NCBI GenBank assembly: GCA_019115885.1 | Contig: DXCQ01000020.1 | Location: forward strand, 5,475 to 69,474 | Direction: 5' to 3' | From: Candidatus Borkfalkia excrementigallinarum | GTDB taxonomy: Bacteria > Bacillota > Clostridia > Christensenellales > Borkfalkiaceae | Length of the DNA: 64,000 bases | In this document: piece after piece, positions 1,995-32,557 of the stretch | Layout of the letters: each line of letters starts with the position of its first letter | Position numbering within the stretch: position 1 is the first letter of the stretch | Program-made: the position numbers and the translations under genes | Notes under the pieces: generated by a model | What the model saw: only the letters and a program-made list of their open reading frames with translations | What the model was told of the DNA's origin: nothing | Database searches by the model: none

Positions 1995-2192
1995 ATGCCT
2001 AAATTTGGCAAATCGGGCTGATTTAAGCATTATATGTGGGTGAATCCTCACTAAAAAGAGCATATTTCTTCTTGCAAATAATTTAAACATCGGAATATGT
2101 ATGTTTATAAATTTAAAACTCAAGAATATGTGAGTTATATTGACAATGTAATATAGTTTTGATAGAATAGTAAAAAGAGAAGGAGCTATTTT

Positions 2193-2777
2193 ATGGGATT
2201 AGAAAAATTTGATGATGCGATTGCAGAATATATAGAAACAAAGCGAAAACATACAATAAAAGCATTGAAAATGGCTCAGCTTTCTGATAGTGAAATTGAT
2301 CAATATTGTGCTGAGATAGAAAAGGAAATCCTTGGTTTTGTTAAATGTAATGAGCCATACGCGCAATTGCTTATGGACTTAGAACACATTCATTCTAAAA
2401 AATACAATTTGTATTCTCTTACAGAGATTGCAAAGAAGAAAAATCATGACAACCCTAGTTATGTTATCCAAAGTTGGCTCAGAGATATAAATACTTTGCA
2501 GTTTTTATATTTGTGGGAGAAAGATAACAATCAATATTTTATCGAAGAAGCCGCAAAAGAATTGATAGAGAAAACAAAGCAACCTTCATTCACAATGACC
2601 GCAAAATTATGGATAAAGAATACCCGGGCAATAGGGATCAGATCAAAACAAGGACATGGAGGAGGTACACTTGTTAGTCAAGAAATAGCGATTGACTTTA
2701 TAACATGGGTGTTTCCGGAAAAGAGATATGAATTGTCAAAACTAATAGTCAACAAAATTATGCAGTTGAAGGATTAG
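2193..2777 (+). CDS. KilA-N (APSES-like) domain DNA-binding protein
   Basis: SLTEIAK...VIQSWLR...TLQFLYLWE...TAKLWI...IRSKQGHGGGT...IAIDFITW pattern; SD GGAG; AT-rich. Confidence 0.8.
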   Translation: MGLEKFDDAIAEYIETKRKHTIKALKMAQLSDSEIDQYCAEIEKEILGFVKCNEPYAQLLMDLEHIHSKKYNLYSLTEIAKKKNHDNPSYVIQSWLRDINTLQFLYLWEKDNNQYFIEEAAKELIEKTKQPSFTMTAKLWIKNTRAIGIRSKQGHGGGTLVSQEIAIDFITWVFPEKRYELSKLIVNKIMQLKD

Positions 2778-2825
2778 ATTTTAACAAAAAAGGGGGAGTG
2801 TATATACGTCATATAGAAGTGATTA

Positions 2826-3123
2826 GATGATTTTACGAAGACAACTAAAGACCTTGTAGCTCAAAGGGGCATATAGATGCTCTTTTAAAAATTGTGGAGT
2901 TGATACTATGGGGTTTCAGTAGGGAGATGCATCAAAATCTAATAACAAGGGAATTGCTTGTCACATTTGTGCAGCTTTGTTTGGTGGGCCAAGATATGAT
3001 CCAAAGAGAGTGGTACCTTAAAATTGTTTTTGGATGTGCCTCACGCATGCAGAACTTATTGATCATGATTTAAATAAATATTCGGTAGAATTATTACGTG
3101 AATAGAAAAAAGAAACTGAAGTA
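2826..3123 (+). pseudogene. Degenerate HNH endonuclease-like gene
   Basis: Conceptual translation with one frameshift and three stops: DDFTKTTKDLVAQR/AYRCSFKNC...G*...KGIACHICAALFGGPRYDP...*NCFWMCLTHAELID...KYSVELLRE*K. Confidence 0.7.
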
Positions 3124-3161
3124 AGAACAGAATCTAATTTAATAAATTATAATTTTTCTAA

Positions 3162-4649
3162 AAGTCAATTAATGAAACATGGGGACAGGAATCTTCAACG
3201 ACAATCAAGCAGGTCAAAATTGTTCTGAAATCAGAAGAAGATACGACGTTCAGGGGGACGTTATCGTTAGATTATGCCTGCACGGAATTCGACGACCGTT
3301 TGCCTACCAATCCGAGTATATATATTGCCGCGGTAAAAAATGTCGTTGAATATTCGCAAGATGCGGAATTTTTAGATCAGGTTTTGCCTTATGCGCGCCG
3401 TGCGATGAATTATCTGCTATATCAGTTACAAGGAGAAGAAGGTTTGATTAGCACGGAAAATTTGGTAGGGCACTATAATAAGGGATTGCATACCAAAGGT
3501 TCGGGCATGGCATCAGGCTATTGGAATGTTCTTGCTATGCCGACAGTAAATATTTATGCCAATATTTATTTTTATGATGCTCTTGTCGCCATGAGTTATT
3601 TGGAAAAGATGGCTGAATTTTATAATGTGGAAAATTTTAGTGAGGTCGTGACAACAGAAGATATAAAAAATGATAAGGTTTACACCTATTCGCAAACGGG
3701 TGAAAGCTTGGATGCGCTTGCGGAGAAGTGTAAGACGAAGATGCAAACGGAGTTTTGGAATGAAGAAACGGGGCGCTTTCATGCCGGTTGCTATGATACT
3801 TCGGCAGGTGGAGTGCAGGACCACGGTTACCTTTTTTTCAATGAACAATTGATTGCCAGCGGTATTGCAACGCAGGAACAGACCGAATCGGTAATGAAAT
3901 GGATAAACGGTGAAAGAGAAATTGCAAGCGACGAAAGTCGTGGAGAGGATATTTATTATTTCGAATTTGCACCGCGATTTAATACGGATGATGTCGAAAC
4001 GGATTTATATTGGGGATACAGTACAACATGGAACGGAAATGTGCAAAATGGCGGGGCAGCGTTGCATCAATCTTATTACGATTTGCTCGCTCAAGCGGCC
4101 GTTAATAAAGATACTTCTTTTACTCGTTTAAAGAATATCCAACAGTGGTATGAAAAAGTGCAGACGGCGGGTGGCGAAGGCCTTGATTTTTATCGGGAGT
4201 ATTATAAGGATATTCCGGATATGCCTTTGCAGGGAAACGATACGCAAGGTATTTTAGGTTTGGATTTCGAATGGTTGGAAGCCGCACTTTTATTTGCGGC
4301 CGTACCGGATGCGTATTTCGGACTTTCCGCCGACTATAATAATACGTTATGTGTTGAACCGTCGCTTCCTACTTCATTAGATTTTTGGAAAATAGAAAAT
4401 CTTACATTTAACGGTTACTATTATGATTTATCGATCGGGCATTATTTTGTTGAGATTAGCGACATTTTAGAGTATAAAGACGGAAGCGGTTCAGAAAATG
4501 CCGAAATTCGAATAGTTTTCGACAAACCGAGTTTTGATTTCAAACTTTATTTGGATGATAAAGAAACATCGGATTATGTAATCAGTGGAGATCAACTGAT
4601 TATTACGATCCCGTTTGAAGATATAAAAGTTGAAATTAAAAAAGTTTAA
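3162..4649 (+). pseudogene. 5'-truncated glycoside hydrolase-like (six-hairpin glycosidase-like) protein
   Basis: Frame is open from 3162 (after TAA at 3159) with no ATG or SD before the TTG at 3300. Helical acidic/aromatic core (FWNEETGRF, DHGYLFFNE) and a beta-rich C-terminus. Confidence 0.55.
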
Positions 4650-4656
4650 CAGTTTG

Positions 4657-4712
4657 AAGCACCTGTTGAAGTCAGGATCCCAAAGGTTCAAATTCAACAG
4701 GTGCTTTGTTTA
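4657..4712 (+). terminator. Hairpin terminator
   Basis: AAGCACCTGTTGAA / TTCAACAGGTGCTT perfect 14-bp arms followed by a T-rich tail. Confidence 0.7.
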
Positions 4713-4963
4713 TTTAAGTCCTGTTTGAAATCCGTAGTTGTTTTTATAAGTTTATCCGTAAACTTGGATTATAAGACTTGAATGCTGTCGTTGGTATTAG
4801 GGTAATAGTCCGAGAATCAAAATCCATCGGCTTATTTTGTGACGTTGGGCTGTTTTTGCAATTGCGATAGTGCATATTCTGCTTTTTGAAAAGAATGCTT
4901 GCGCCATGCCTTTCGGTTATGATATAATAATAAATGAAAAAGAAAGCATGACGGGAGGACGGT

Positions 4964-5851
4964 ATGGAACTTCGGGTACTGCGCTATTTTTTGACGCTTG
5001 CGCGGGAGAACAATATTTCGAGGGCGGCAGAGGCTCTGTTTATCACGCAGCCCACATTGTCGCGCCAGCTCGCAGAATTGGAGGAGGAGCTGGGAGTAAA
5101 ACTGTTCGAGCGGGGCAAACGGAAGATCACTCTCACGGAGGACGGGATGCTCCTGCGCCGCCGCGCCGAAGAGATGATCGAGCTGGAAGATAAAGTTGAG
5201 AGGGAATTCCGGCAGCGCAACGACAATTTGAGCGGCGTGATCTCCATCGGGGCGGCGGAAACAAAGGCTGTGGAAATACTTCCCAAGCTGATCACCTCTT
5301 TCCGTGAAAAATATCCCGCCGTCACCTTCGACATCCAGTCGGATATCGCTACTTCGGTAAAGGAGGGGATCGACCGCGGTGTGTTGGATATCGGGCTGGT
5401 GATCGAGCCGGGCGATATCGATAAGTACAACTTTATTCCGCTCGGTATCGACGATCGCTGCGGGATCTTGATGAGCACGCAGTCGCCGCTCGCGCAAAAG
5501 GAGTACGTTACGGTGAACGATCTCGTCGGCTTGCCCGTGATCGCAAACAAGCGCGCATCGGTGCAGTCCTTTTACCGCAGCGCGCTGGGTGAAACGTATG
5601 ACAAACTGAATGTGATCGCCACGCACAACCTCGTCAACAACGCGGCGCATTTTGCCCGCCAAAATCTCGGCTATGTGTTCACCGTCGAGGGCACGGTCAA
5701 CGGCAACAACAATTACGGCACCTGTTTCCGCCCCTTTTATCCGGAGATACGCCAATCGACCTTTATCGTCTGGAAAAAGTATCAGCCGCTGGCGCGTGCG
5801 GTCAAAAAATTCACGGAAGAGATCGCAATGCTTTTCGGGCATGATGATTGA
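4964..5851 (+). CDS. LysR-family transcriptional regulator
   Basis: MELRVLRYFLTLARENNISRAAEALFITQPTLSRQLAELEEELGVKLFER HTH; SD GGAGG. Confidence 0.95.
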   Translation: MELRVLRYFLTLARENNISRAAEALFITQPTLSRQLAELEEELGVKLFERGKRKITLTEDGMLLRRRAEEMIELEDKVEREFRQRNDNLSGVISIGAAETKAVEILPKLITSFREKYPAVTFDIQSDIATSVKEGIDRGVLDIGLVIEPGDIDKYNFIPLGIDDRCGILMSTQSPLAQKEYVTVNDLVGLPVIANKRASVQSFYRSALGETYDKLNVIATHNLVNNAAHFARQNLGYVFTVEGTVNGNNNYGTCFRPFYPEIRQSTFIVWKKYQPLARAVKKFTEEIAMLFGHDD

Positions 5852-19417: not shown

Positions 19418-21167
19418 CGGGGGCGCCGTCGCCACGAATAAAAAGGCGGCGTTCGTGCGCCTGATACGCTACTATCTGCTCTATAAATGGCACATGTTCG
19501 CCGCATTTGCGCTGATGGTGGGCAGCAACCTGTTCGCCCTGCTCGGCCCGTGGCTATCGGGCGCGGCGATCGACGCGATCGATCTGGAAACGGGCGTGGA
19601 TTTTGCCGCCGTGGGTATGTATTGCCTCTGGATGGCCGTGTTCTACGTCGTTTCCTCCGCGCTCTCCTATATCCTCTCGGTGCTGATGATCCGTTTGAGC
19701 CAAAGGATCGTGCGCGCCATGCGGCAAGACGTGTTCGATAAGATCCTCACCCTCTCCGTGGGGGATTTGGATCGGGTTGCGGCGGGGGATCTCATCAACC
19801 GCATCTCCTACGATATCGCCACCGTCAATGCCTCCCTTTCCAACGATATTTTGCAGGCGGCCACGGGCGTGATCACCGTGGTCGGGGCGTTCATCGGCAT
19901 GGTGCTCACCTCGCCCGCCTTGCTCGGCGTGTTCGCGGTCACCATCCCCATATCCGTGTTTATCACCGTCCGCCGCAGCCGTAAGGTTCGCCCGCTCTTT
20001 CGCAAGCGCTCGGCAAAGCTTGCCGAACTCAACGGCTTTTCGGAGGAGATGCTCTCCGGGTTAAAGACCATCCGCGCCTACGGCAGGGAGGAGGAGATCT
20101 GCGCCAAATTCGACGCGAAGAACACCGACGCGGCAGACGCCTATTACGCCGCCGATTATTACGGCAGCCTCATCGGCCCCTCCGTCAACTTCGTCAACAA
20201 TCTCGGCACGGTGCTCATCAGCACGGCGGGCTCCTTTTTCTACCTGTTTTCGCTCATATCGGTGGGGGAAATTTCCTCCTTTCTGCTCTATTCCCGCCGC
20301 TTTTCGGGGCCGATCAACGAGTACGCGAATATCATGGGCGAAATACAGTCTGCGCTGGCCGCGGCGGAGCGCGTGTTCCGCCTGCTCGATACGCCGCCCG
20401 AAACGCCGGACGTGCCCGATGCCGAAGTGCTGGCAAGTTTGCGGGGCGACGTGCGCTTTGAAAACGTGCGGTTTTCTTACGACGGCGAAAAAACGATTTT
20501 GAGCGGCCTTTCTTTCGAGGCGAAGGCGGGGCAGACGATCGCTATCGTCGGGCCGACGGGCGCGGGGAAAACGACGCTCGTCAATCTTTTGATGCGCTTT
20601 TACGATCCGCAGGGCGGGCGCATCGTTTTAGACGGAAAGGATATCCGCGGCTACACGCGCGCCAGCCTGCGCGCGGCGTTCACCATGGTGTTGCAGGATA
20701 CTTGGCTGTTCGAGGGCACGGTCTTTGAAAATATCGCCTACGGCAAGGAGGGCGCAACGCGCGAAGAGGTAGAACAGGCAGCGCGGGAGGCGAACATTGC
20801 CGATTTTATCGAAGGGCTTCCGCAAAAATACGACACGATGCTCACGGACGGCGGCGTCAATCTCTCCAAGGGGCAAAAACAGCTCGTAACGATCGCGCGC
20901 GCCATGCTTTCGCCCGCAAAACTGCTCATCCTCGACGAAGCTACCAGCAACGTGGATACGCGCACCGAATTGCTCATTCACGACGCGATGACGCGGCTCA
21001 TGCGCGGCAAAACCTGTTTCGTCATCGCCCATCGCCTTACGACCGTCAAGGGCGCCGATCTCATTTTAGTCGTGCGGGAAGGGGACATCGTGGAGAGCGG
21101 CCGCCACGGCGAATTGTTGGAGCGCCGCGGCTTTTATTCGGAAATTTACAACGCGCAGTTTGAATAA
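19398..21167 (+). CDS. ABC exporter TMD+NBD subunit (consensus site)
   Basis: GPTGAGKT, LSKGQKQL, ILDEATS, IAHRL; SD GGAGGTG, ATG 19398. Confidence 0.95.
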   Translation: MPMSARDGGAVATNKKAAFVRLIRYYLLYKWHMFAAFALMVGSNLFALLGPWLSGAAIDAIDLETGVDFAAVGMYCLWMAVFYVVSSALSYILSVLMIRLSQRIVRAMRQDVFDKILTLSVGDLDRVAAGDLINRISYDIATVNASLSNDILQAATGVITVVGAFIGMVLTSPALLGVFAVTIPISVFITVRRSRKVRPLFRKRSAKLAELNGFSEEMLSGLKTIRAYGREEEICAKFDAKNTDAADAYYAADYYGSLIGPSVNFVNNLGTVLISTAGSFFYLFSLISVGEISSFLLYSRRFSGPINEYANIMGEIQSALAAAERVFRLLDTPPETPDVPDAEVLASLRGDVRFENVRFSYDGEKTILSGLSFEAKAGQTIAIVGPTGAGKTTLVNLLMRFYDPQGGRIVLDGKDIRGYTRASLRAAFTMVLQDTWLFEGTVFENIAYGKEGATREEVEQAAREANIADFIEGLPQKYDTMLTDGGVNLSKGQKQLVTIARAMLSPAKLLILDEATSNVDTRTELLIHDAMTRLMRGKTCFVIAHRLTTVKGADLILVVREGDIVESGRHGELLERRGFYSEIYNAQFE

Positions 21168-21189
21168 ATTACGGCCAATTTTAGTGCAC

Positions 21190-21220
21190 GAAAGGCCGCC
21201 CGAAGTTCGGGCGGCCTTTC
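21190..21220 (+). terminator. Intrinsic terminator
   Basis: GAAAGGCCGCCCGAA / TTCGGGCGGCCTTTC. Confidence 0.8.
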
Positions 21221-21403
21221 TAAAAAAACCAAGAAATGTGTGAACGAATTTTGTATATTTATTCTATTATAATTTTTCAATATTGTCAATAAATATTCAC
21301 GTGATTTTCAAAATAATGGGGCAATTTTTTATAAAATTTCTGTCGGGGAACCGTCTTGTATCAAAGACAAGCACAAGCAATAGTTCTAATATTTGAATTT
21401 CTA

Positions 21404-21432
21404 TTGAAAATCTCTAAACAATGTGATATAAT
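21404..21432 (+). promoter_or_regulatory. Strong SigA promoter of the metallophosphoesterase gene
   Basis: TTGAAA-17-TATAAT with extended -10 TG. Confidence 0.7.
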
Positions 21433-21463
21433 TTAGCATAATATTTTGCAGAAAGGTGGGACT

Positions 21464-24457
21464 ATGGCTGACGAACTAACAATTCAAAATTCAGACGTGG
21501 TGAGTTTAGTTAAACGATTGAAAGACAGATCAATCGGATTTTATGATGTGCCTGATGAATACAAAAATCATCCTTTAATTGTAAAAGTAGAAAGAGAATT
21601 AAAGGTTAGAAAGTCGATACTGAAAGGGTATGATATAATACGAAATAATTTTTTTGTTGAAGAAGAAATTAGCGATTCCCGTTCTTTAATGAATAATATA
21701 CAAACGACTTGCTTTAACGATTTTTCTGCATATTATAATTTTTTACAGGGAGATATTTATAAAAATAGTTGTTATTATGGATATTGCTTTTCAGAGGAGG
21801 AAAGAAAAAAATATTCATTATCCTTGAAAAGATTAAATTTTGATGCTTTTATTAGAAATTCGATTGACGATTTTTCCCTTGATTTTTCTATAGAGGAACA
21901 AAAACAATATCAAGAGATAGAATTAAGGAAGAACGGCATTTTAGAAATGCTTGATAAAATCAATGCTTGTACGACTTATACAGAACTTAAAGAACAGGTG
22001 CAAAAAGCTTCAACTAATCCTATTGCTCAGGAATTTTTTCTGTCTTACTATATCGTTCATAATAAGGAAAAAGCATTTAATATTGCCATGGAATATATCA
22101 ATAATACGCACTCGTTTCTCCATGCAGAAAAAATGTGTTTGATATATGAGCCGCAAAAGGTTCTTGAAGCTTATAAATGTACTGGTTATACTCGGCAAAC
22201 AGCAAAAAAATATGAAAAACGTCTCAGACTGTTTGTGAACGCCTTAGAAAATGATACTTTAAAATCAAAATCAGCGGCATATTTTGATGAAAAAACTCAT
22301 TTATTTGTCTTCAGTACTGCTGTGGAATATGAGTTAGATTCAAAGTATAATCATGAAGTAAAGATACAAAGATATTTTAAGACATTTGAAGAATTAGCGG
22401 TATTCCTGGGGAACGATTTATCAGATTGTGATTTATCGCACGCTATTCTGCCAAATTTGGATATATCAAAATATAAAATTTCCGATAGAACAAAATTACC
22501 TGTTCAATTCCAAAATGATCTCCTTTACACATTAATAAAAGCATATGACAAGAAAGAAGATAAATTTATTGTTGAACAGAATTGGACGGATAAAGAAGGG
22601 TTCTCCTTTAAATATTATCACCATTCTTTTAAGTATTTCTTTGATTTTGTACATTTTCTAAAAGGCGATTTGCGTAATGCTGATTTACTGTTTTGCGAAG
22701 GTTTGGAAAATGTTCAAAATTTTTCAGAAATAAATTTACAAAATGCAAATCTTAGAAGTGAGATTTCAGATAACCTGGGTATAAAACATAAGATCTCGCC
22801 TGTTCCCTCTATTGAAATTTCCCCTTTGATTCAACAAAACGAAGAAGAATCGCAAAATGTTCTACTATTTGAACGAGAATCTTACAGTTTTGAAGAAAAT
22901 TTTGAATGCCAAAAAATATATTATATTTCTGACCTGCATTTCGTGCATAGGTTAAATAATGCACATTGCAAAAGCGAGACGGATATTATTTCTGAGATAC
23001 AAAAAGTGATCGATATGCTTTTAAGCAGGTTGAATACATTTAGTATTTTAAACATACATAAATTTGGAAAGAGAATTTTGTTGATTGGAGGAGACACCTC
23101 GTCGGATTTTGCGATTTTTCAGCAGTTCGTCAAGATGTTAAGAAAATCGCTTGATAATAAACAACTTGATTTAAATGTCGTTTTCACGCTTGGGAATCAT
23201 GAATTGTGGGCCTTTCCGCAATGTACACTCGGAGAAATTGTCGCAAAGTATCAGAAAGTGCTCAGTGAAAATGGCATGTTCCTTTTACAAAATAATATAA
23301 TTTATAAGTATAATTGGAATGATATCGGTGAAATAAGCACCGATGCACTGAAATCTATGTCCGCGCAAGAACTTCATCTTCGTCTGAACGAAGCAAGAAT
23401 AATCCTTTTTGGAGGAATAGCGTTTTCCGGATATAATGAAGAGTTTAATGCAAATTTGCTTATTTATAGAGATACGATAAACAGGCAACAGGAAATCGAG
23501 GAAACAAAAAATTTTGAAGCACTATATCGTAAAGTTTGCAATGATTTATCCGATAAAAGAGTAATTGTGTTTACGCATATGCCGCAAAGAGATTGGTGTT
23601 CTGACATAAAACAGCAAAAAGGTTTTGTTTATTTAAACGGTCATACACATAGAAATTATTTTTATGATGATGGAGACTATAGAATATATGCAGACAATCA
23701 AATAGGCTATAAATACAGAAATACGTACCTTAAATATTTTTATTTAGATGATGATTACGATATTTTTACCGATTACAAAGACGGAATATACGAAATAAGC
23801 AGAGAACAATATGTCAAATTTTATCGCGGGAAGAACATTGCAATAACATTTGACAGAGAATTTTATAAACTCTTTATGCTAAAGAAGAATGGATATTATA
23901 TGTTTGTTCTTCAAACTCAAAATGGAAAGTTAAGGATTTTAAACGGCGGAACAATAAAATGCTTAGAACGAAAAGATATAGATTATTATTTTGATAGAAT
24001 GGACGAGATTGTTTCTTATATTAAAAATCCTTTAGATGAATTCAGTACGTATCAAACACAAATTTCTAAAGCGATTAAAGCTTTAGGCGGAAGCGGAACA
24101 ATTCACGGATCAATCGTAGATATAGACTTCTTCAACCATTTATATATAAATCCAATAGATTTTACAATAACACCTTACTATGCGGTTGATATTGTAAGAA
24201 AAATAGTTTTTTCGGATACGCAAGAACTGTTAAAAAGTAATTGTCCTGTCCTTTATAAAAATTATTTAAAACAAACGGAAAATAAATCGCCTGTAATAAG
24301 CTGTTTACTGAAAAAAGGAAGAACAGATTCTAATATGCAACTTTATTTGGATACTGATATATATAAAGCATCGAGAGAAATTAAAAAAATGCAAAAATTA
24401 AAATCAAATATTTTAAGCATATGGATTGAGCCTACTATTAAAAAGCTCAATGAATAA
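21464..24457 (+). CDS. 997-aa calcineurin-like metallophosphoesterase with a repeated N-terminal region
   Basis: All five MPE motifs are present: ISDLH, GGD, GNHE, FTH, GHTH. SD AAAGGTGG, ATG 21464. Markedly AT-rich relative to its flanks. Confidence 0.85.
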   Translation: MADELTIQNSDVVSLVKRLKDRSIGFYDVPDEYKNHPLIVKVERELKVRKSILKGYDIIRNNFFVEEEISDSRSLMNNIQTTCFNDFSAYYNFLQGDIYKNSCYYGYCFSEEERKKYSLSLKRLNFDAFIRNSIDDFSLDFSIEEQKQYQEIELRKNGILEMLDKINACTTYTELKEQVQKASTNPIAQEFFLSYYIVHNKEKAFNIAMEYINNTHSFLHAEKMCLIYEPQKVLEAYKCTGYTRQTAKKYEKRLRLFVNALENDTLKSKSAAYFDEKTHLFVFSTAVEYELDSKYNHEVKIQRYFKTFEELAVFLGNDLSDCDLSHAILPNLDISKYKISDRTKLPVQFQNDLLYTLIKAYDKKEDKFIVEQNWTDKEGFSFKYYHHSFKYFFDFVHFLKGDLRNADLLFCEGLENVQNFSEINLQNANLRSEISDNLGIKHKISPVPSIEISPLIQQNEEESQNVLLFERESYSFEENFECQKIYYISDLHFVHRLNNAHCKSETDIISEIQKVIDMLLSRLNTFSILNIHKFGKRILLIGGDTSSDFAIFQQFVKMLRKSLDNKQLDLNVVFTLGNHELWAFPQCTLGEIVAKYQKVLSENGMFLLQNNIIYKYNWNDIGEISTDALKSMSAQELHLRLNEARIILFGGIAFSGYNEEFNANLLIYRDTINRQQEIEETKNFEALYRKVCNDLSDKRVIVFTHMPQRDWCSDIKQQKGFVYLNGHTHRNYFYDDGDYRIYADNQIGYKYRNTYLKYFYLDDDYDIFTDYKDGIYEISREQYVKFYRGKNIAITFDREFYKLFMLKKNGYYMFVLQTQNGKLRILNGGTIKCLERKDIDYYFDRMDEIVSYIKNPLDEFSTYQTQISKAIKALGGSGTIHGSIVDIDFFNHLYINPIDFTITPYYAVDIVRKIVFSDTQELLKSNCPVLYKNYLKQTENKSPVISCLLKKGRTDSNMQLYLDTDIYKASREIKKMQKLKSNILSIWIEPTIKKLNE

Positions 24458-24469
24458 ACAATGTTTTGA

Positions 24470-24507
24470 AAAAAGAACCTAAATCGAATTCGATTTAGGT
24501 TCTTTTT
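24470..24507. terminator. 38-bp perfect palindrome, bidirectional terminator
   Basis: AAAAAGAACCTAAATCGAA|TTCGATTTAGGTTCTTTTT between a convergent CDS and the tRNA locus. Confidence 0.75.
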
Positions 24508-24508
24508 A

Positions 24509-24527
24509 GCGCAGAGAGCGGGATTTG
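24509..24527 (-). repeat. 19-bp copy of the tRNA-Ser(GGA) 3' end (att-like)
   Basis: GCGCAGAGAGCGGGATTTG is identical to 24812-24830. Confidence 0.85.
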
Positions 24528-24809
24528 TAAGGAGCGGCGGATGCCGCGACGGAACAGCAATCGTTGCGTGGAAAGCCGATCGCGTCACGTTATTTCAATA
24601 ATATAGAGCTATAGAGCAGGTGTGTATGGTATAGCGGCATACGGCCGAAACCCCGTAGGGGTCCCCTCGGCTGAGCGTCGTGGGCGGTGCCCGCTCGCGT
24701 GAACCGACGCGCGTACAGGCAAGGCGGACGATACAAACCTCGTATCGCGCGTGGTTCAACCGTTTCCGCCGCACCAAAAAAGGACTGCCGGTTGGCAGTC
24801 CTTTTTTGG

Positions 24810-24900
24810 TGGCGCAGAGAGCGGGATTTGAACCCGCGGTACCCTTATGAAGTACACACGATTTCCAATCGTGCTCCTTAAGCCGCTCAGACATCTCTGC
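24810..24900 (-). tRNA. tRNA-Ser(GGA)
   Basis: Acceptor GCAGAGA/TCTCTGC-G-CCA; anticodon arm CACGA-TTGGAAA-TCGTG; long variable arm; GGTTCAAATCC. Confidence 0.97.
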
Positions 24901-24932
24901 AAAAAACCCAACTTAAAAAGTTGGGTCAAAAT

Positions 24933-25007
24933 TGGTAGCCCCACGGGGACTCGAACCCCGGTTTTCGCCGTGAGAGGGCGACGTCTTAACCGCTTGACCA
25001 TGAGGCC
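24933..25007 (-). tRNA. tRNA-Glu(CTC)
   Basis: GGCCTCATGGTCAAGCGG...TCGCC-CTCTCAC-GGCGA...GGTTCGAGTCCCCGTGGGGCTACCA. Confidence 0.97.
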
Positions 25008-25100
25008 GTAATCAAAATTGCTAAGTTATTATACCATAAAGTTTTGCATATGGCAAGCTGTTTTTACGCCAAAACAAAACTTTTTTTTGCAAAAAAAGAT

Positions 25101-25278
25101 CCGCCTGTGCCGCAGAACGAAAAAGTGTTAACCCGCTTCTCGCAGGTGGGTGCGCCGCCATGCCGCATCAGACTTTCCGTTCATAAACAGACCTTGCCTA
25201 TCGGCACAGACGATTTGCATAGCGCTCCCGTATTTCAAATGTGGATTAAGATAATTCGAACTCCGAACACCGCAGACC
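25101..25278 (-). ncRNA. ssrS: Probable 6S RNA
   Basis: The minus strand contains GCACCCACCTGCGAGAAGCGGGTTAACAC, resembling the Firmicute 6S 3' motif. The ends partly pair (GTCTGCGG / GCGGCACAGGC), length is about 180 nt, and it has its own promoter and a T tract. Confidence 0.65.
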
Positions 25279-25326
25279 GTATCCATGTCAGTATATGGGG
25301 CGGAACCCGCCCGTTGTCTACTATCT

Positions 25327-25354
25327 ATTATACAACGTTTTTTGAAAATAGCAA
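25327..25354 (-). promoter_or_regulatory. SigA promoter for the 6S RNA
   Basis: TTGCTA-16-TATAAT on the minus strand. Confidence 0.55.
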
Positions 25355-25505
25355 CCGAAAACCGCTAAAAAGCAATGTGAAATTTTTTCCATGCGCCTTT
25401 TGCTCGTTTTTCAAATACCGCGCCCGGTGATGGCAAAAAAGCGTGCGGCAATACCGATTTTACGATAAGGCTCCGCCGAAATTTCGGCGGAGCCTTGAAA
25501 AGCGC

Positions 25506-26360
25506 CTATTTTGCCGCTTTGTCGAGCTCTTTGAGGAAAGCGTACATTTGGCCTTCCGAATTCAGCCCGTAGCGCGCCTCCGTGCCGTCCGCTTTGGTTT
25601 GCTTGATGGAATTTTTAGTAAATTCCGCGGAGATGGCGACGGCCGTATCCGGATCGATGCCTCGCGCGAGCGCGCCGACCAGAGCGCTCACATACACGTC
25701 GCCTGCGCCGTGGAAGGCGCCTTCGATCTTTTCGGTCGAATACCGCTTTGTGTTTCCGCTCTTATCCGTATAATATACGGAGCAGACCGTCCGCTTTCCT
25801 TCCGCCGTTTCAACCGTTTCGTCGCAGCCGGTCACGGAAGGGCAGGGGCAGAGCTGTTTCAGTTTATCTAAAATTTTGCCGTAGCTGTGCTCGTCGGCGG
25901 AAGAATAATCGGTGCCCGTCAGATAGCACGCCTCCGTCAGGTTGGGCACGATGATGTCCGCCACGCGGCATAGGCCCTTCATCTGTTCGACGAAGTGCCC
26001 GTCGAAGTGCGCGTACAGCTTTCCGTTGTCGCCCATGACGGGATCGACGATCATCACGCCGCCCTCTTTGAGAAAATCGCGCTTGATGCTCTTGACCATA
26101 TCGATCTGCTCGATGCTGCCGAGGTATCCGCTCACGATAAAGTCGTATTTCAGGTTCAGGCTCTTCCAATGCGCGAGCATGGCGGGGATATCCTCGCTCA
26201 GGTCGCGGAAGGTATAGCCCGTAAACCCGCCCGTATGGGTGGAGAGGATTGCTGTGGGCAAAATATCGCAGGTAACGCCGGATGCCGAAATGATGGGCAG
26301 GGCGACCGTTAGAGAGCATTTTCCCACGCAGGAAATGTCGTTGACGGCCAAAACACGCAT
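25506..26360 (-). CDS. pdxK: Pyridoxal/pyridoxamine kinase (PfkB family)
   Basis: NDISCVGKCS, LSTHTGGF, SGYLGS, VDPVMGDNG, PNLTEA, HGAGD. Confidence 0.92.
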   Translation of the reverse strand: MRVLAVNDISCVGKCSLTVALPIISASGVTCDILPTAILSTHTGGFTGYTFRDLSEDIPAMLAHWKSLNLKYDFIVSGYLGSIEQIDMVKSIKRDFLKEGGVMIVDPVMGDNGKLYAHFDGHFVEQMKGLCRVADIIVPNLTEACYLTGTDYSSADEHSYGKILDKLKQLCPCPSVTGCDETVETAEGKRTVCSVYYTDKSGNTKRYSTEKIEGAFHGAGDVYVSALVGALARGIDPDTAVAISAEFTKNSIKQTKADGTEARYGLNSEGQMYAFLKELDKAAK

Positions 26361-30340: not shown

Positions 30341-30556
30341 ATGAAGACGATCGCCATCGTCGAGGACGACGAATATATCGGGAACATGCTCGCGGAACTG
30401 CTCGGCGCGAGCGGGTATAAAACGGTGCGCGCCTATTCGGGCAGCGAGGCGCTCCTTCTCTTGGAGCGGGAAAAGCCGGACTTGATCCTGCTCGACTTGA
30501 TGCTCCCCGGAGTGAGCGGGGAGGCGGTTCTCGAACGGGTGGCGGGCGTGAACTAA
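30341..30556 (+). pseudogene. OmpR-type response regulator, receiver domain truncated by an insertion at 30551
   Basis: IVEDD and DLILLDLMLPG are present; stops mid-receiver before the conserved Lys and wHTH, where composition turns AT-rich. Confidence 0.85.
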
Positions 30557-30601
30557 AGCCCAGTAGAATCAATAGAAGGATATCAATGTGAGTTGGAGCG
30601 T

Positions 30602-31672
30602 TTATAACAAGATGCGAATTAAGAATTCACGTTTTGCCCATTTCTTATATGTATAGTATTCTGAAGATGTTAGATTAGTGGTGAGGAATTCAGTTATAAG
30701 AAAACCCCGATCGGAATTATCGGTTCCGTCGGGGTTGTTATCATTATGCGGGGGAGTGGTATGCGGTTCTCCATGATATTTTAAGAATATCTCTATTTTA
30801 TCCATGTAAACGATTATTTTCTCGACTAAAAGTTCTACAAGGTTTCGAGGTGTTTTTTGAATGGCGTACTTTAAGTATTTCTTAATTTCATCCGTCGTCG
30901 GGACTGAGCGCTCTTTGTTTTTTTCTATCAATAATTTTTCAGTCAATGCCTTCTTTTGCGTCTCAAGTTCATCCAAACGGGTTTTCGTAGTATCACTGAA
31001 AATTCCGTTTTCGATTGCTTTTAGCAAATTGGATAATGACTTGTTGGTTTGAGCTAAAGCCTTTTCAAGTGTTTTTAAGGTTTGCGCTTCGGCTGTATCT
31101 TGCTGTAATTTTATTAAAAGACGTTCAGTCAGAAAGTTTAGATTTTTCTCAGTTGTGACTTGGTCAACAAGTGCGGAAACTACGAGGTTTTCCAAAATGT
31201 CTTTTCGGAATGTTTTATCTTTACAGCCCTTTACTCGTCTGGCGGAAAAACAACGATAGTATCTGTATTGTTTCTTACCCCGTGATTTTCCTCCGGCTGA
31301 ACGCATAGGATTACCGCATTCGCAGAATAATTTTCCTTTTAAGATGTATTCAACGCCGGGGACATGTTTGCCGTGACGGTTCGCTTCAAGTCGCTTTTGT
31401 ACTTGTTGAAATATTTCTTCGGGGATGATGCGAGGAAAAATGTTGTCGTATAATATTCCGTTAACGGTATATCTTCCCGCATACCGCTCCAAATGTAACA
31501 TATAGTACATGGATTCAGGCGAAAATGGAACGCCTTTTTTATTTACGATGCCGTCGGCTTTTAATTCTTCTGCAAGGGTGAGCAATCTTTTTCCGTTTGC
31601 GTATTCGGTAAAGATTCTTTGTGCAATTTTCGCCTCGGTTTCATTGATAACGACTTTTCTGTCAATGACATC
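30602..31672 (-). mobile_element. C-terminal fragment of a large serine recombinase (recombinase + zinc ribbon + coiled coil)
   Basis: VINETEAKIAQRIFTEY, ERYAG, PRII, GKLFCECG, YYRC...C. The N-terminal catalytic domain is absent, and the AT-rich segment ends abruptly at 31672. Confidence 0.85.
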
Positions 31673-32557
31673 ATGACGATCGCTCTCGGCTGTGCGGCGG
31701 CGGTGCTCGCCGCCGCGGTGCTCATCCTCGCGCTGAAAGTATGCGCGCTGAAAAGTTCCCTGCGGGAACTCGCCGTACAGGCGGAGGAAAAATACCGCGA
31801 AAGCTCCAACGCGCCGCTCTCCCCGCAGTCTGCGGATAAGGGCGTGCGGCGGCTGGCGGGGGAACTCACGGCGCAGCTCGACGAAGTTATCGCCGCGCGG
31901 CGGCAGTATGCGGAGGGCAACGGCGAATTGCTGCGCGCCGTTACCAACGTTTCGCACGACCTGCGTACGCCGCTCACGTCCATTGCGGGGTATTTGGGTT
32001 TGCTCCGTTCGAGCGGGTTAAACGACAAACAAATCGAATTTGTCGATATTATCGGCGGGCGCGTCGCGGCGATGAAAAAGCTGACGGAGGAGCTGCTCGT
32101 CTATTCGGTCGCCGCGTCGGGCGAGGAGGAAATGCCCGCCGGGCGCGTCTGCCTCAACGATTGTCTGGAAGATTCTCTCACGCAGTTCTATGTATCCTTT
32201 GCGGAGCGCGGCATCGAACCGAAGATCGATATCTGCGCCGCGCGCGTGGAGCGCTCGTACAACAAGGACGCGCTCTCCCGCATATTCGGCAATATCCTCT
32301 CCAATGCCGTGCGGTATTCGGACGGCGATCTGTGCGTGCGTTTGGAGGAAACGGGGCGCATCGAATTTGAAAATTCCGCCTCGCGGTTAGACGGGGTGAG
32401 CGCGGGCAAGCTGTTCGACCGCTTTTTTACCGTGGAGAATGCGCGCGGTTCCGCGGGGCTGGGGCTCTCCATCGCCAAACTCCTCACCGAAAAGTCGGGC
32501 GGAAAGATCGCCGCGTCGTGGCGGGCGGGGCGGCTGAAAATCGTTTTGTGCCTGTAA
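31673..32557 (+). CDS. Sensor histidine kinase, RBS apparently lost
   Basis: N-terminal TM, NVSHDLRTPL H-box, NILSNAVRY, LFDRFF, GLGLSIAK; ATG abuts the recombinase fragment. Confidence 0.85.
   Translation: MTIALGCAAAVLAAAVLILALKVCALKSSLRELAVQAEEKYRESSNAPLSPQSADKGVRRLAGELTAQLDEVIAARRQYAEGNGELLRAVTNVSHDLRTPLTSIAGYLGLLRSSGLNDKQIEFVDIIGGRVAAMKKLTEELLVYSVAASGEEEMPAGRVCLNDCLEDSLTQFYVSFAERGIEPKIDICAARVERSYNKDALSRIFGNILSNAVRYSDGDLCVRLEETGRIEFENSASRLDGVSAGKLFDRFFTVENARGSAGLGLSIAKLLTEKSGGKIAASWRAGRLKIVLCL

What the first reader, a model, noticed from the sequence alone, without database searches (positions are those of the whole stretch)
21404..24507. Self-contained AT-rich cassette encoding a 997-aa metallophosphoesterase: candidate single-gene defence system
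Seen: a consensus extended -10 promoter, one large ORF with a complete calcineurin-like active site (DLH, GD, GNHE, TH, GHTH) flanked by about 480-aa and 270-aa unassigned regions, and a perfect palindromic terminator. It is far more AT-rich than its neighbours and abuts a tRNA 3'-end duplicate. Known: phosphoesterase domains act as effectors in several antiphage and conflict systems, and tRNA sites collect such cargo. Inference: a horizontally acquired sensor-effector protein whose architecture I cannot match to a named system.
Basis: partly seen in the sequence, partly recalled or inferred. Interest (0 to 1): 0.65.

Follow-up and report, generated by a model that had tools for sequence, protein, structure and literature searches.

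The report
Mobile phosphoesterase gene, candidate phage defence
A chicken-gut bacterium carries a foreign-looking, actively transcribed single gene for a 997-residue phosphoesterase that some strains of the same species lack. It belongs to a large unstudied family that gut Firmicutes exchange and often keep beside anti-phage genes, so it is a credible but untested immune gene.

Summary
An intact 997-aa ORF (21464-24457) has all five calcineurin-type metal motifs, a near-consensus extended -10 promoter, a perfect 19+19 palindrome and 30% GC in a 58% GC genome.

- A metatranscriptome contig covers only the gene, so it is transcribed as a single-gene message.
- Other strains of the same species (99% identical left flank) lack the gene. 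In them, 110 nt replace window 21359-24636.
- The protein is not an orphan. It belongs to a family of at least 1,378 clusters in gut Bacillota. These genes stay near 30% GC whatever the host, move between genera and classes, and have no fixed partner gene. They often lie near defence or mobile-element genes.
- The layout is three homologous N-terminal beta-beta-beta-alpha repeats, the phosphoesterase, and a C-terminal domain with no PDB fold match.
- That C-terminal domain is also found fused to a PDC-S61-type nuclease-like domain.

The cassette does abut a tRNA-Ser 3'-end duplicate, but it lies outside the repeat pair. Across the family there is no tRNA association.

A defence role is plausible (about 0.5) and untested. 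No named system matches: PADLOC gives no hit, and the protein lacks the NACHT domain of DS-8.

The parts
21221..21358 (.). Resident AT-rich intergenic DNA (GC 0.25). It is not part of the mobile segment.
   Evidence: Present at 99% identity in the cassette-free contigs L095 and L096 and in runs X31 and X34.
21359..24508 (+). Strain-specific AT-rich cassette: promoter, one gene and terminator (GC 0.30).
   Evidence: Zero depth across 21408-24455 in runs X31, X32 and X34, which hold the left flank. L095 and L096 join 21358 to 24637 through 110 nt. The 97.7%-identical contig L001 spans 21370-24503.
21404..21432 (+). Sigma-70-type promoter with extended -10 (TTGAAA-17-TGaTATAAT).
   Evidence: 11/12 plus TG. 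The metatranscriptome contig starts at 21456 and there is no RNA coverage at 21228-21384.
21464..24457 (+). CDS of 997 aa. RBS AAAGGTGG at 21452-21459.
   Evidence: Full-length homologues. dN/dS 0.25 against L001. RNA contig 21456-24422 at depth 127.
21593..21799 (+). N-terminal repeat module 1 (aa 44-112): beta-beta-beta-alpha followed by a GDI/GDL turn.
   Evidence: AF2 secondary structure. hhalign against modules 2 and 3 gives probability 91.5% and 95.2%.
22247..22471 (+). Repeat module 2 (aa 262-336) with a pentapeptide-like DLSDCDLS turn.
   Evidence: module 2 against 3: probability 96.5%, E 8e-10. The Pfam Pentapeptide and DUF5377 hits are below threshold.
22508..22735 (+). Repeat module 3 (aa 349-424).
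   Evidence: The DNA-level repeat D1 links it to module 1.
22907..23743 (+). Calcineurin-like metallophosphoesterase domain (aa 482-760) with a complete di-metal site.
   Evidence: Nearest folds are CD73 and Rv0805 and viral MPEs. It has the lowest dN/dS of the three regions, 0.12.
23765..24454 (+). C-terminal domain (aa 768-997). It has no PDB fold match and carries the conserved motif HGxIxD-x5-H-x-Y-x2-P-x-D.
   Evidence: AF2 pLDDT 86.4. No PDB sequence or fold match. Homologous to the C-terminus of PDC-S61 fusion proteins. Invariant residues are listed. It is the most conserved region, with mean pairwise identity 0.57.
24470..24507 (.). Perfect 38-nt palindrome with an A-run and a T-run; a likely bidirectional terminator.
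   Evidence: I8. RNA depth falls here. De Bruijn contigs break inside it.
24509..24527 (-). Exact duplicate of the 3' 19 nt of tRNA-Ser(GGA).
   Evidence: It abuts the cassette, but its partner repeat at 24812-24830 lies on the far side of 284 non-coding bases.
24810..24900 (-). tRNA-Ser(GGA). tRNA-Glu and 6S RNA lie further along.

Best explanation
Shown:
- Window 21359-24508 is a horizontally acquired accessory cassette with its own promoter and terminator, transcribed on its own in vivo.
- It encodes a cytoplasmic 997-aa protein made of three homologous N-terminal beta-beta-beta-alpha repeats (with a variable helical insert), a catalytically intact calcineurin-type metallophosphoesterase, and a conserved C-terminal domain with no PDB fold match.
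- It is one member of a large family in gut Bacillota. The family is patchily distributed, moves between genera and classes, has no obligate partner gene, and is often found among defence and mobile-element genes.

Inferred:
- It is a one-protein conflict (anti-phage or anti-mobile-element) system.
- The phosphoesterase would be the effector, cutting a phosphoester in nucleic acid or in a nucleotide pool. A nuclease-type action is favoured because, in sister proteins, the same C-terminal domain follows a PD-(D/E)xK-type domain in its place.
- The conserved C-terminal domain, with its His/Asp/His/Asp site, would be the common regulatory or ligand-binding partner of the effector.
- The more variable N-terminal repeats would set what is recognised.
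For: Foreign origin and mobility:
- GC3 is 0.257 against 0.77-0.79 in host genes.
- The gene is absent from other strains with 99% identical left flanks.
- Gene GC is 0.30 +/- 0.05 against flank GC 0.41 +/- 0.10, and lower than the flank in 61 of 64 species.
- Proteins are 92-96% identical across genera, and across Erysipelotrichaceae and Lachnospiraceae.
- Genomic contexts differ between genomes.

Functional gene:
- Single-gene RNA contig 21456-24422 at depth 127, with no RNA in either intergenic region.
- dN/dS 0.25 overall and 0.12 in the phosphoesterase domain.
- The catalytic residues are invariant.

Conflict context:
- Immediate neighbours in about 60 non-redundant loci include HEC-05/GmrSD, JetD, AbiLi, PDC-S01/S03/S04/S41, MADS genes, NERD, a Schlafen-type helicase, TnpV, TrbL and VirD4.
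- Genes 6.5-10 kb away include a type I restriction enzyme, Cas1, DRT, ThsB and a type IV restriction enzyme.
- One locus has a TIR-PP2C gene next door and another an Mrr gene two ORFs upstream.

Modular build:
- The C-terminal domain is shared with PDC-S61-type fusions.
- Short forms with only phosphoesterase plus C-terminal domain exist.
- The N-terminal region is the most variable.
- One MAG carries two copies that are 39% identical.

Precedent: phosphoesterase catalysis is essential in the validated systems DS-8 and DS-9 (PMC13092281).
Against: - No member has been tested.
- PADLOC, NCBIfam and PHROGs give no defence-family hit for the protein.
- In this window, and in several other genomes, the immediate neighbours are housekeeping genes.
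- I could not score the defence-gene tally against a proper genome-wide background.
- PDC-S61 is only a candidate and was dispensable in SthRAP-9 and SthRAP-12.
- No sensor or NTPase domain of a known type is present.
- The substrate is unknown. The nearest solved folds are nucleotide-acting enzymes, at weak scores.
Confidence: 0.5

Rival explanations
1. The gene serves mobile elements, not the host. It would be an anti-defence, entry-exclusion or inter-element competition enzyme (for example, one that destroys immune signalling nucleotides) that was left behind or captured in the chromosome.
For: Some homologues sit beside TnpV, TrbL and VirD4-type genes. One subgroup has a nearly identical XRE-HTH gene directly upstream in several genera, which looks like part of a transferable element. 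Phage phosphoesterases that evade immunity are known (PMC12287305, abstract seen). The nearest folds act on nucleotides.
Against: No homologue was found in 50,697 phage records. On plasmids, only the C-terminal domain was found, in a different fusion. Here and in many genomes the gene sits alone in the chromosome with its own promoter and is expressed constitutively. Its size of about 1000 aa and its variable N-terminal repeats look more like a sensor-effector than an anti-defence enzyme.
Confidence: 0.15
2. The gene is an accessory enzyme unconnected to genetic conflict, for example nucleotide or phosphoester scavenging or turnover of a signalling nucleotide. It would spread because it is useful in the gut.
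For: The metallophosphoesterase superfamily is mostly metabolic. The neighbours in this window are housekeeping genes. The gene is expressed at or above the level of its neighbours. It is present in most sampled chicken-gut populations.
Against: There is no signal peptide or membrane segment. There is no conserved operon partner or metabolic neighbourhood. The gene stays at foreign composition in 61 of 64 hosts. The shared C-terminal domain is fused to a nuclease-type defence-candidate domain. Defence and mobile-element genes recur nearby.
Confidence: 0.2
3. The gene is a DNA-repair nuclease of the Mre11/SbcD kind.
For: It has the same motif set. The only PDB sequence hit of the family profile is T. 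maritima SbcD/Mre11.
Against: That hit has E 0.82 and covers only motifs I-III. No SbcC/Rad50 partner is conserved next to the gene. The distribution is patchy and horizontally transferred, and the flanking domains are different.
Confidence: 0.05
4. The cassette is the cargo of an integrase-driven island that targeted the tRNA-Ser 3' end (the route the first reader proposed).
For: An exact 19-nt duplicate of the tRNA 3' end abuts the cassette. A second genome (L009/L010) also has a family member next to a tRNA-Ser and the same GC-rich element.
Against: The cassette lies outside the repeat pair. No third copy sits at its left end: the best local alignment scores 14, against a shuffle mean of 14.3. 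There is no integrase in or beside it. Cassette-free strains already carry the duplicate and the GC-rich units. Across the family a tRNA lies within 1 kb in 3 of 38 loci, about background. Homology-anchored recombination through the conserved tRNA and GC-rich unit is a simpler route, though it too is only inferred.
Confidence: 0.1

Closest known systems
DS-8 (DefensePredictor; Science 2026, PMC13092281)
   Same: It is a one-gene system in which a calcineurin-type metallophosphatase is essential for anti-phage defence. Both are large multidomain cytoplasmic proteins.
   Different: DS-8 pairs the phosphatase with a NACHT P-loop NTPase. This protein has no Walker A motif and no NTPase hit in Pfam or NCBIfam. 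Its phosphoesterase domain is central, not terminal, and is flanked by two domains without known relatives. It is found in Bacillota and is untested.
PDC-S61-type fusion proteins (e.g. the 569-aa protein WP_302500205.1 on L. reuteri plasmid pLr03, NZ_CP130283.1)
   Same: They have a homologous C-terminal domain (28% identity, E 1e-20; shared HGxIxD...H...P.D and TDIYxAS motifs). In both, this domain follows directly after an enzymatic domain.
   Different: The enzymatic domain is the PADLOC candidate PDC-S61 (E 9e-82, PD-(D/E)xK-like), not a phosphoesterase. There are no N-terminal repeats. PDC-S61 alone is only a candidate and was dispensable in S. thermophilus SthRAP-9 and SthRAP-12.
Mre11/SbcD nucleases
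   Same: They share the five phosphoesterase motifs and belong to the same superfamily.
   Different: The profile match is not significant (E 0.82). There is no capping domain and no Rad50/SbcC partner. The genomic behaviour is different.
PUA-Calcineurin-CE-HAD module and DS-9 (phosphoesterase plus HAD)
   Same: In both, a calcineurin-type phosphoesterase acts in defence together with other modules (abstract).
   Different: No PUA or HAD domain and no partner gene is present here.
CD73 5'-nucleotidase and Rv0805 cyclic-nucleotide phosphodiesterase
   Same: They are the nearest solved folds for the catalytic domain (Foldseek E 0.013-0.09).
   Different: The scores are weak, sequence identity is 10-14%, and the match covers only the catalytic core.

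Membership tests
Calcineurin-like metallophosphoesterase superfamily (PF00149) | Pfam model matched above the gathering score | tested here: met
   32.8 bits against a cut-off of 21.5, residues 484-730. PHROG 1649 also matches, E 1.6e-8.
Calcineurin-like metallophosphoesterase superfamily (PF00149) | Five metal-binding and catalytic motifs: DxH, GD, GNH[ED], H, GHxH | tested here: met
   D490/H492, D544, N578/H579, H705 and H727/H729 are present and invariant in 94 sequences.
DS-8 (metallophosphatase plus NACHT one-gene defence system) | NACHT/STAND P-loop NTPase domain | tested here: not met
   No [AG]xxxxGK[ST] motif. No NTPase family in Pfam or NCBIfam at E <= 1.
DS-8 (metallophosphatase plus NACHT one-gene defence system) | SMPDL3A-like phosphatase fold | tested here: inconclusive
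   The top Foldseek PDB hits are CD73 and Rv0805. SMPDL3A is not among the first 50, and all scores are weak.
DS-8 (metallophosphatase plus NACHT one-gene defence system) | Protection against phage that depends on the catalytic residues | not testable with these tools
   This needs an experiment.
PADLOC PDC-S61 | Match to the PDC-S61 model | tested here: not met
   The whole protein and its three pieces give no hit. Only the non-PDC-S61 half of the fusion proteins is homologous.
Any system in PADLOC-DB v2.0.0 | HMM match at E <= 1 | tested here: not met
   Later DefenseFinder and PADLOC releases could not be checked.
Mre11/SbcD | Significant sequence or profile similarity beyond the shared motifs, and a Rad50/SbcC partner | tested here: not met
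   E 0.82 against 2q8u. No conserved neighbouring gene.
Pentapeptide-repeat proteins (PF00805) | Pfam model above the gathering score, with tandem repeats forming a beta-helix | tested here: not met
   11-14 bits against a cut-off of 20.2. Only single DLSxxDLS turns follow each module.
tRNA-targeting integrative island | Direct att repeats that bracket the cargo | tested here: not met
   The repeats at 24509-27 and 24812-30 enclose 284 non-coding bases. There is no copy at the left end.
tRNA-targeting integrative island | An integrase at one end | tested here: not met
   No such ORF lies in 21200-25000. The nearest recombinase fragment is at 30602-31957.
Defence-island gene (guilt by association) | Enrichment of known defence genes nearby, compared with a genome background | tested here: inconclusive
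   About 7-9 of 88 adjacent genes and 8-9 of 69 genes at 6.5-10 kb have strong PADLOC hits. No matched background could be run. In this window the neighbours are housekeeping genes.

The most novel reading that the evidence does not exclude
The conserved C-terminal domain (aa 768-997) has no PDB fold match and carries a His/Asp/His/Asp site. It could be a new regulatory or ligand-sensing module that gates interchangeable effectors (metallophosphoesterase or PD-(D/E)xK nuclease). The triple beta-beta-beta-alpha array would be a new recognition module. Together they would define a previously unnamed, widespread class of one-protein immune systems in gut Firmicutes, spread as promoter-gene-terminator cassettes without a recombinase of their own.
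Probability: 0.3. Interest if true: 0.7.

Novelty: new variant of a known kind. Interest (0 to 1): 0.5.

Why it matters
Gut Firmicutes are poorly covered by defence-system catalogues, which were built mostly in E. coli and Bacillus.

This family has more than a thousand 50%-identity clusters. It is expressed in vivo, varies between strains, and contains two domains without known relatives. It is therefore a concrete, cloneable candidate for a new immune mechanism based on a phosphoesterase.

The domain swap (phosphoesterase against PD-(D/E)xK nuclease on the same C-terminal module) gives a direct experimental handle on which part senses and which part kills.

The with/without alleles in chicken-gut metagenomes give a natural comparison for phage load.

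If no defence phenotype is found, the family remains an abundant, mobile enzyme of unknown purpose.

Tried and rejected
- PADLOC, NCBIfam and PHROGs on the whole protein and on its three parts gave nothing beyond generic phosphoesterase hits.
- The PDB sequence search with family profiles gave only an insignificant SbcD hit for the full length, and nothing for the C-terminal domain.
- Foldseek gave weak catalytic-core hits only for the full model, nothing for the C-terminal domain alone, and only phosphoesterases in the viral library.
- tblastn against phages found no match. On plasmids it found only the C-terminal domain.
- No gene recurs in every locus, so there is no universal partner gene.
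- A family-wide tRNA association was rejected: 3 of 38 loci, which is background.
- No decayed att copy was found at the left boundary.
- Many homologues sit on contigs of only about 3.1-3.5 kb, which suggested a free or circular element. For the one such contig examined (L001) this is an assembly effect, because contigs end inside the 38-nt palindrome.
- An Rfam search of 20000-26000 found only the two tRNAs and 6S RNA, and nothing for the GC-rich element.
Copy number in the genome and a matched background for the defence-gene tally could therefore not be obtained.
Full report
**1. The observation**

The window has one long ORF at 21446/21464-24457 on the + strand. The ATG at 21464 follows AAAGGTGG by 4 nt and gives 997 aa.

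Pfam finds only Metallophos, at residues 484-730 with 32.8 bits against a cut-off of 21.5. They are invariant in an alignment of 94 homologues.

The promoter TTGAAA-17-TGaTATAAT at 21404-21432 is the best-scoring site in the region. The scan also shows that promoter-like hexamers in this AT-rich DNA are no more frequent than chance, so position and RNA data carry the argument, not the motif alone.

A perfect 19+19 palindrome lies at 24470-24507.

GC is 0.28-0.35 inside the gene against 0.58-0.62 outside. Third-codon-position GC is 0.257 against 0.77-0.79 in host genes.

An exact 19-nt copy of the tRNA-Ser(GGA) 3' end lies at 24509-24527, directly after the palindrome. The tRNA's own copy is at 24812-24830.

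**2. The gene is expressed as a unit**

A chicken-gut metatranscriptome (X23) holds a 2,967-nt contig that matches 21456-24422 without a mismatch, at depth 127. There is no coverage at 21228-21384 or at 24525-24681.

The upstream ABC-transporter gene has depth 29-91 and the nearby 6S RNA about 6,500. Two further RNA runs hold pieces of the gene.

DNA carry-over would not leave both intergenic regions empty. I therefore read this as a single-gene transcript running from the predicted promoter to the palindrome. Contig depth is a rough measure, so only presence and boundaries are claimed.

**3. The gene is accessory within its own species**

- Seven DNA runs from chicken gut join the ABC-transporter flank to the cassette (X1, X7, X11, X17, X2, X10, X30).
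- Three others (X31, X32, X34) hold the left flank up to 21358 at depth 12-52, but have no depth at all across 21408-24455. They continue with a different sequence.
- Searching that sequence in public metagenome contigs gave two contigs, L095 and L096.
- These contigs match the window at 99% up to 21358. After 110 unrelated bases they resume at window 24637, at 95-97% identity.

So 21359-24636 is replaced by 110 nt in other strains. The AT-rich 21221-21358 is resident DNA, and the cassette proper is 21359-24508.

A close variant (97.7% identity, L001) gives dN/dS 0.25 overall and 0.12 in the catalytic domain. This indicates purifying selection.

**4. The tRNA link**

- The two 19-nt repeats enclose 284 non-coding, GC-rich, strongly folding bases (z about -6), not the cassette.
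- No third copy exists at the cassette's left end, and no integrase lies nearby.
- Cassette-free strains already have the duplicate and one or two copies of the GC-rich unit.
- Across the family, a tRNA lies within 1 kb in 3 of 38 loci with enough flank. That matches the tRNA density of those loci.

One coincidence remains. In another chicken-gut genome (L009/L010) a 45%-identical family member also lies next to a homologous GC-rich unit and a tRNA-Ser(GCT). A conserved unit of this kind could serve as a homology anchor for recombination. That is inference only.

**5. The family**

- A word-indexed search found 681 relatives, nearly all about 1,000 aa and aligned end to end.
- An exhaustive HMMER search of 1.84 billion cluster representatives found 1,378 at E <= 1e-3 and 775 at E <= 1e-30.
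- A pattern scan found 262 of 185,579 species genomes with a copy. Nearly all are gut Bacillota: Lachnospiraceae, Oscillospiraceae, Christensenellales, Clostridiaceae, Erysipelotrichaceae and Bacilli.
- Gene GC is 0.30 +/- 0.05 whatever the host (flank GC 0.25-0.62) and is lower than the flank in 61 of 64 species.
- Proteins are 94-96% identical between Eisenbergiella, Blautia and another Lachnospiraceae MAG. They are 92.6% identical between a Faecalicoccus (Erysipelotrichaceae) MAG and a Lachnospiraceae isolate.
- One MAG has two copies that are 39% identical, with the caveat that binning can mislead.
- No homologue was found in 50,697 phage records.

**6. Neighbourhoods**

No gene accompanies the family everywhere.

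One subgroup has an XRE-type HTH gene ending 1-7 nt before the start codon. That gene is nearly identical across genera, as expected for a shared mobile element.

Among 88 immediately adjacent genes from about 60 non-redundant loci, strong PADLOC or Pfam hits include:
- defence genes: HEC-05/GmrSD, JetD, AbiLi, PDC-S01/S03/S04/S41, MADS genes, NERD, a Schlafen-type helicase;
- mobile-element genes: TnpV (twice), TrbL, VirD4.

Among 69 genes 6.5-10 kb away there are a type I restriction enzyme, Cas1, a DRT reverse transcriptase, ThsB, PDC-S66, mad3 and a type IV restriction enzyme. One locus has a TIR-PP2C gene next door and another an Mrr-type gene two ORFs upstream.

That is roughly one strong defence hit per ten genes. 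From general knowledge, defence genes make up about 1-2% of a genome. I could not run a matched background, so I rate the enrichment as suggestive.

Many loci, including this window (MarR and two ABC exporters on one side; tRNAs, 6S RNA, a kinase and a dehydrogenase on the other), have only housekeeping neighbours.

**7. Anatomy of the protein**

AlphaFold2 with the 94-sequence alignment gives pLDDT 88.6 and pTM 0.81.

*N-terminal region.* It contains three beta-beta-beta-alpha modules (aa 44-112, 262-336, 349-424), each ending in a GDL/DLSxxDLS turn. Profile-profile comparison shows they are homologous (probability 91-96%, E 1e-6 to 8e-10). A helical insert (113-261) separates modules 1 and 2.

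*Catalytic domain.* Its nearest solved folds are CD73 and Rv0805, at weak scores. In the viral library only phosphoesterases match.

*C-terminal domain (768-997).*
- Modelled alone it reaches pLDDT 86.4.
- It has no PDB match by sequence profile or by Foldseek; the best hit has E 0.77 and probability 0.09.
- It is the most conserved part of the protein: mean pairwise identity 0.57, against 0.535 for the catalytic domain and 0.33-0.48 for the N-terminal parts.

There is no Walker A motif and no signal peptide or membrane segment.

**8. A domain swap**

The only plasmid hits are to a 569-aa L. reuteri protein that aligns with residues 768-997 (28% identity, E 1e-20). Its N-terminal 254 residues are the PADLOC candidate PDC-S61 (E 9e-82), with similarity to a PD-(D/E)xK domain of DRT systems.

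A search seeded with that C-terminal half found two classes of protein in which the domain directly follows an enzymatic domain:
- PDC-S61-type plus C-terminal domain, 514-785 aa;
- phosphoesterase plus C-terminal domain, including minimal forms of 579-702 aa without the N-terminal repeats.

Residues conserved across both classes form a His/Asp-rich site. They include D773, G774, Y783, K807, H881, G882, D886, H892, P897, D899, Y905, Y967 and S970.

PDC-S61 is only a candidate: in S. thermophilus it was dispensable for the SthRAP-9 and SthRAP-12 systems.

**9. Mechanism**

Shown:
- the gene is mobile, strain-variable, expressed and selectively constrained;
- the di-metal site is intact;
- the build is modular.

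Inferred (about 0.5):
- it is a one-protein conflict system;
- the phosphoesterase is the effector. A nuclease-like action is somewhat favoured because a PD-(D/E)xK domain can take its place, but depletion of nucleotides or cleavage of a signal is not excluded;
- the conserved C-terminal domain regulates or co-operates with the effector through its His/Asp site;
- the variable N-terminal repeats determine what is recognised.

Rivals:
- a mobile-element-serving or anti-defence enzyme (0.15);
- a non-conflict accessory enzyme (0.2);
- an SbcD-like repair nuclease (0.05).

Separately, I give the tRNA-integrase island route of arrival 0.1.

**10. Comparison with known systems**

The closest validated system in kind is DS-8, a metallophosphatase-NACHT single-gene system in which both domains are essential. 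DS-9 is a phosphatase plus HAD pair (PMC13092281).

This protein fails the defining NACHT feature and matches no PADLOC or NCBIfam model. It may work like DS-8 in using a phosphoesterase effector, but it is not a member.

I found no paper on this family. NCBI records call its members 'metallophosphoesterase' or 'hypothetical protein'.

Earlier notes of this scan on three other genomes reached the same 'credible but untested' verdict for the same family. That is not independent support, and it lowers the marginal novelty of this window.

**11. Verdict**

This is a real, well-bounded, expressed, strain-variable accessory gene. I class it as a new variant of a known kind: a phosphoesterase-based single-protein conflict system. 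Two of its domains have no known relatives, and its function is untested. Interest is 0.5.

Noticed in passing
window 24528-24810; L009:11160-11284; L096: A GC-rich, strongly folding unit (z about -6) lies between tRNA-Ser and its 19-nt duplicate. It ends in ...GCCGCACCA before a bidirectional terminator and follows a promoter-like spacer. L096 has two tandem copies. A homologue lies next to tRNA-Ser(GCT) in another genome. In metagenomes there is an alternative form in which 115 nt replace 24597-24809, and 24520-24560 has much higher depth than the rest. No Rfam match, and little or no RNA in X23.
   Followed up: partly
L095 and L096 (cassette-free allele), minus strand across window position 21358: The cassette-free allele encodes a 31-aa ORF (MENSIDIAENYQKLLAAFAEARQ[D/N]GSPTEIL) with a GGAG ribosome-binding site. 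The cassette junction falls inside it, so the window keeps only its last 9 codons. Whether it is a real gene is unknown.
   Followed up: no
window 2000-5000: A second AT-rich island (GC 0.33-0.39) lies directly after the tmRNA gene (1564-1942). ORF 2193-2777 is a KilA-N protein that matches PADLOC candidate PDC-S22 (E 2e-30). ORF 3300-4649 (449 aa) has no family.
   Followed up: partly
window 30602-31957 (-): A 451-aa ORF with Recombinase and Zn_ribbon_recom domains but no resolvase catalytic-domain hit lies partly within a lower-GC patch (30500-31500). It is probably a remnant of a serine-recombinase element.
   Followed up: no
window 25094-25281 (-): A 6S RNA gene (Rfam 50 bits) lies next to tRNA-Glu and tRNA-Ser. 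It is very abundant in the metatranscriptomes (depth about 6,500).
   Followed up: no
L026, L027, L028, L030, L037, L064: A 271-aa XRE-type HTH protein is encoded 1-7 nt upstream of the phosphoesterase gene. It is nearly identical across Eisenbergiella, Roseburia, Blautia and Porcipelethomonas, which suggests a shared transferable element carrying a regulator-plus-enzyme pair.
   Followed up: partly
P0055, P0058, P0063; L002:7773-9686: Some family members carry an N-terminal DUF4379 treble-clef zinc-ribbon extension (about 1,120 aa). In L002 a separate 637-aa DUF4379/NUMOD (homing-endonuclease-like) gene sits upstream and a TIR-PP2C gene downstream.
   Followed up: no
window 21261-21289 (-): A near-consensus promoter-like site (TTGACA-17-TAGAAT) points away from the cassette, within the resident AT-rich spacer. 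It has no obvious target.
   Followed up: no
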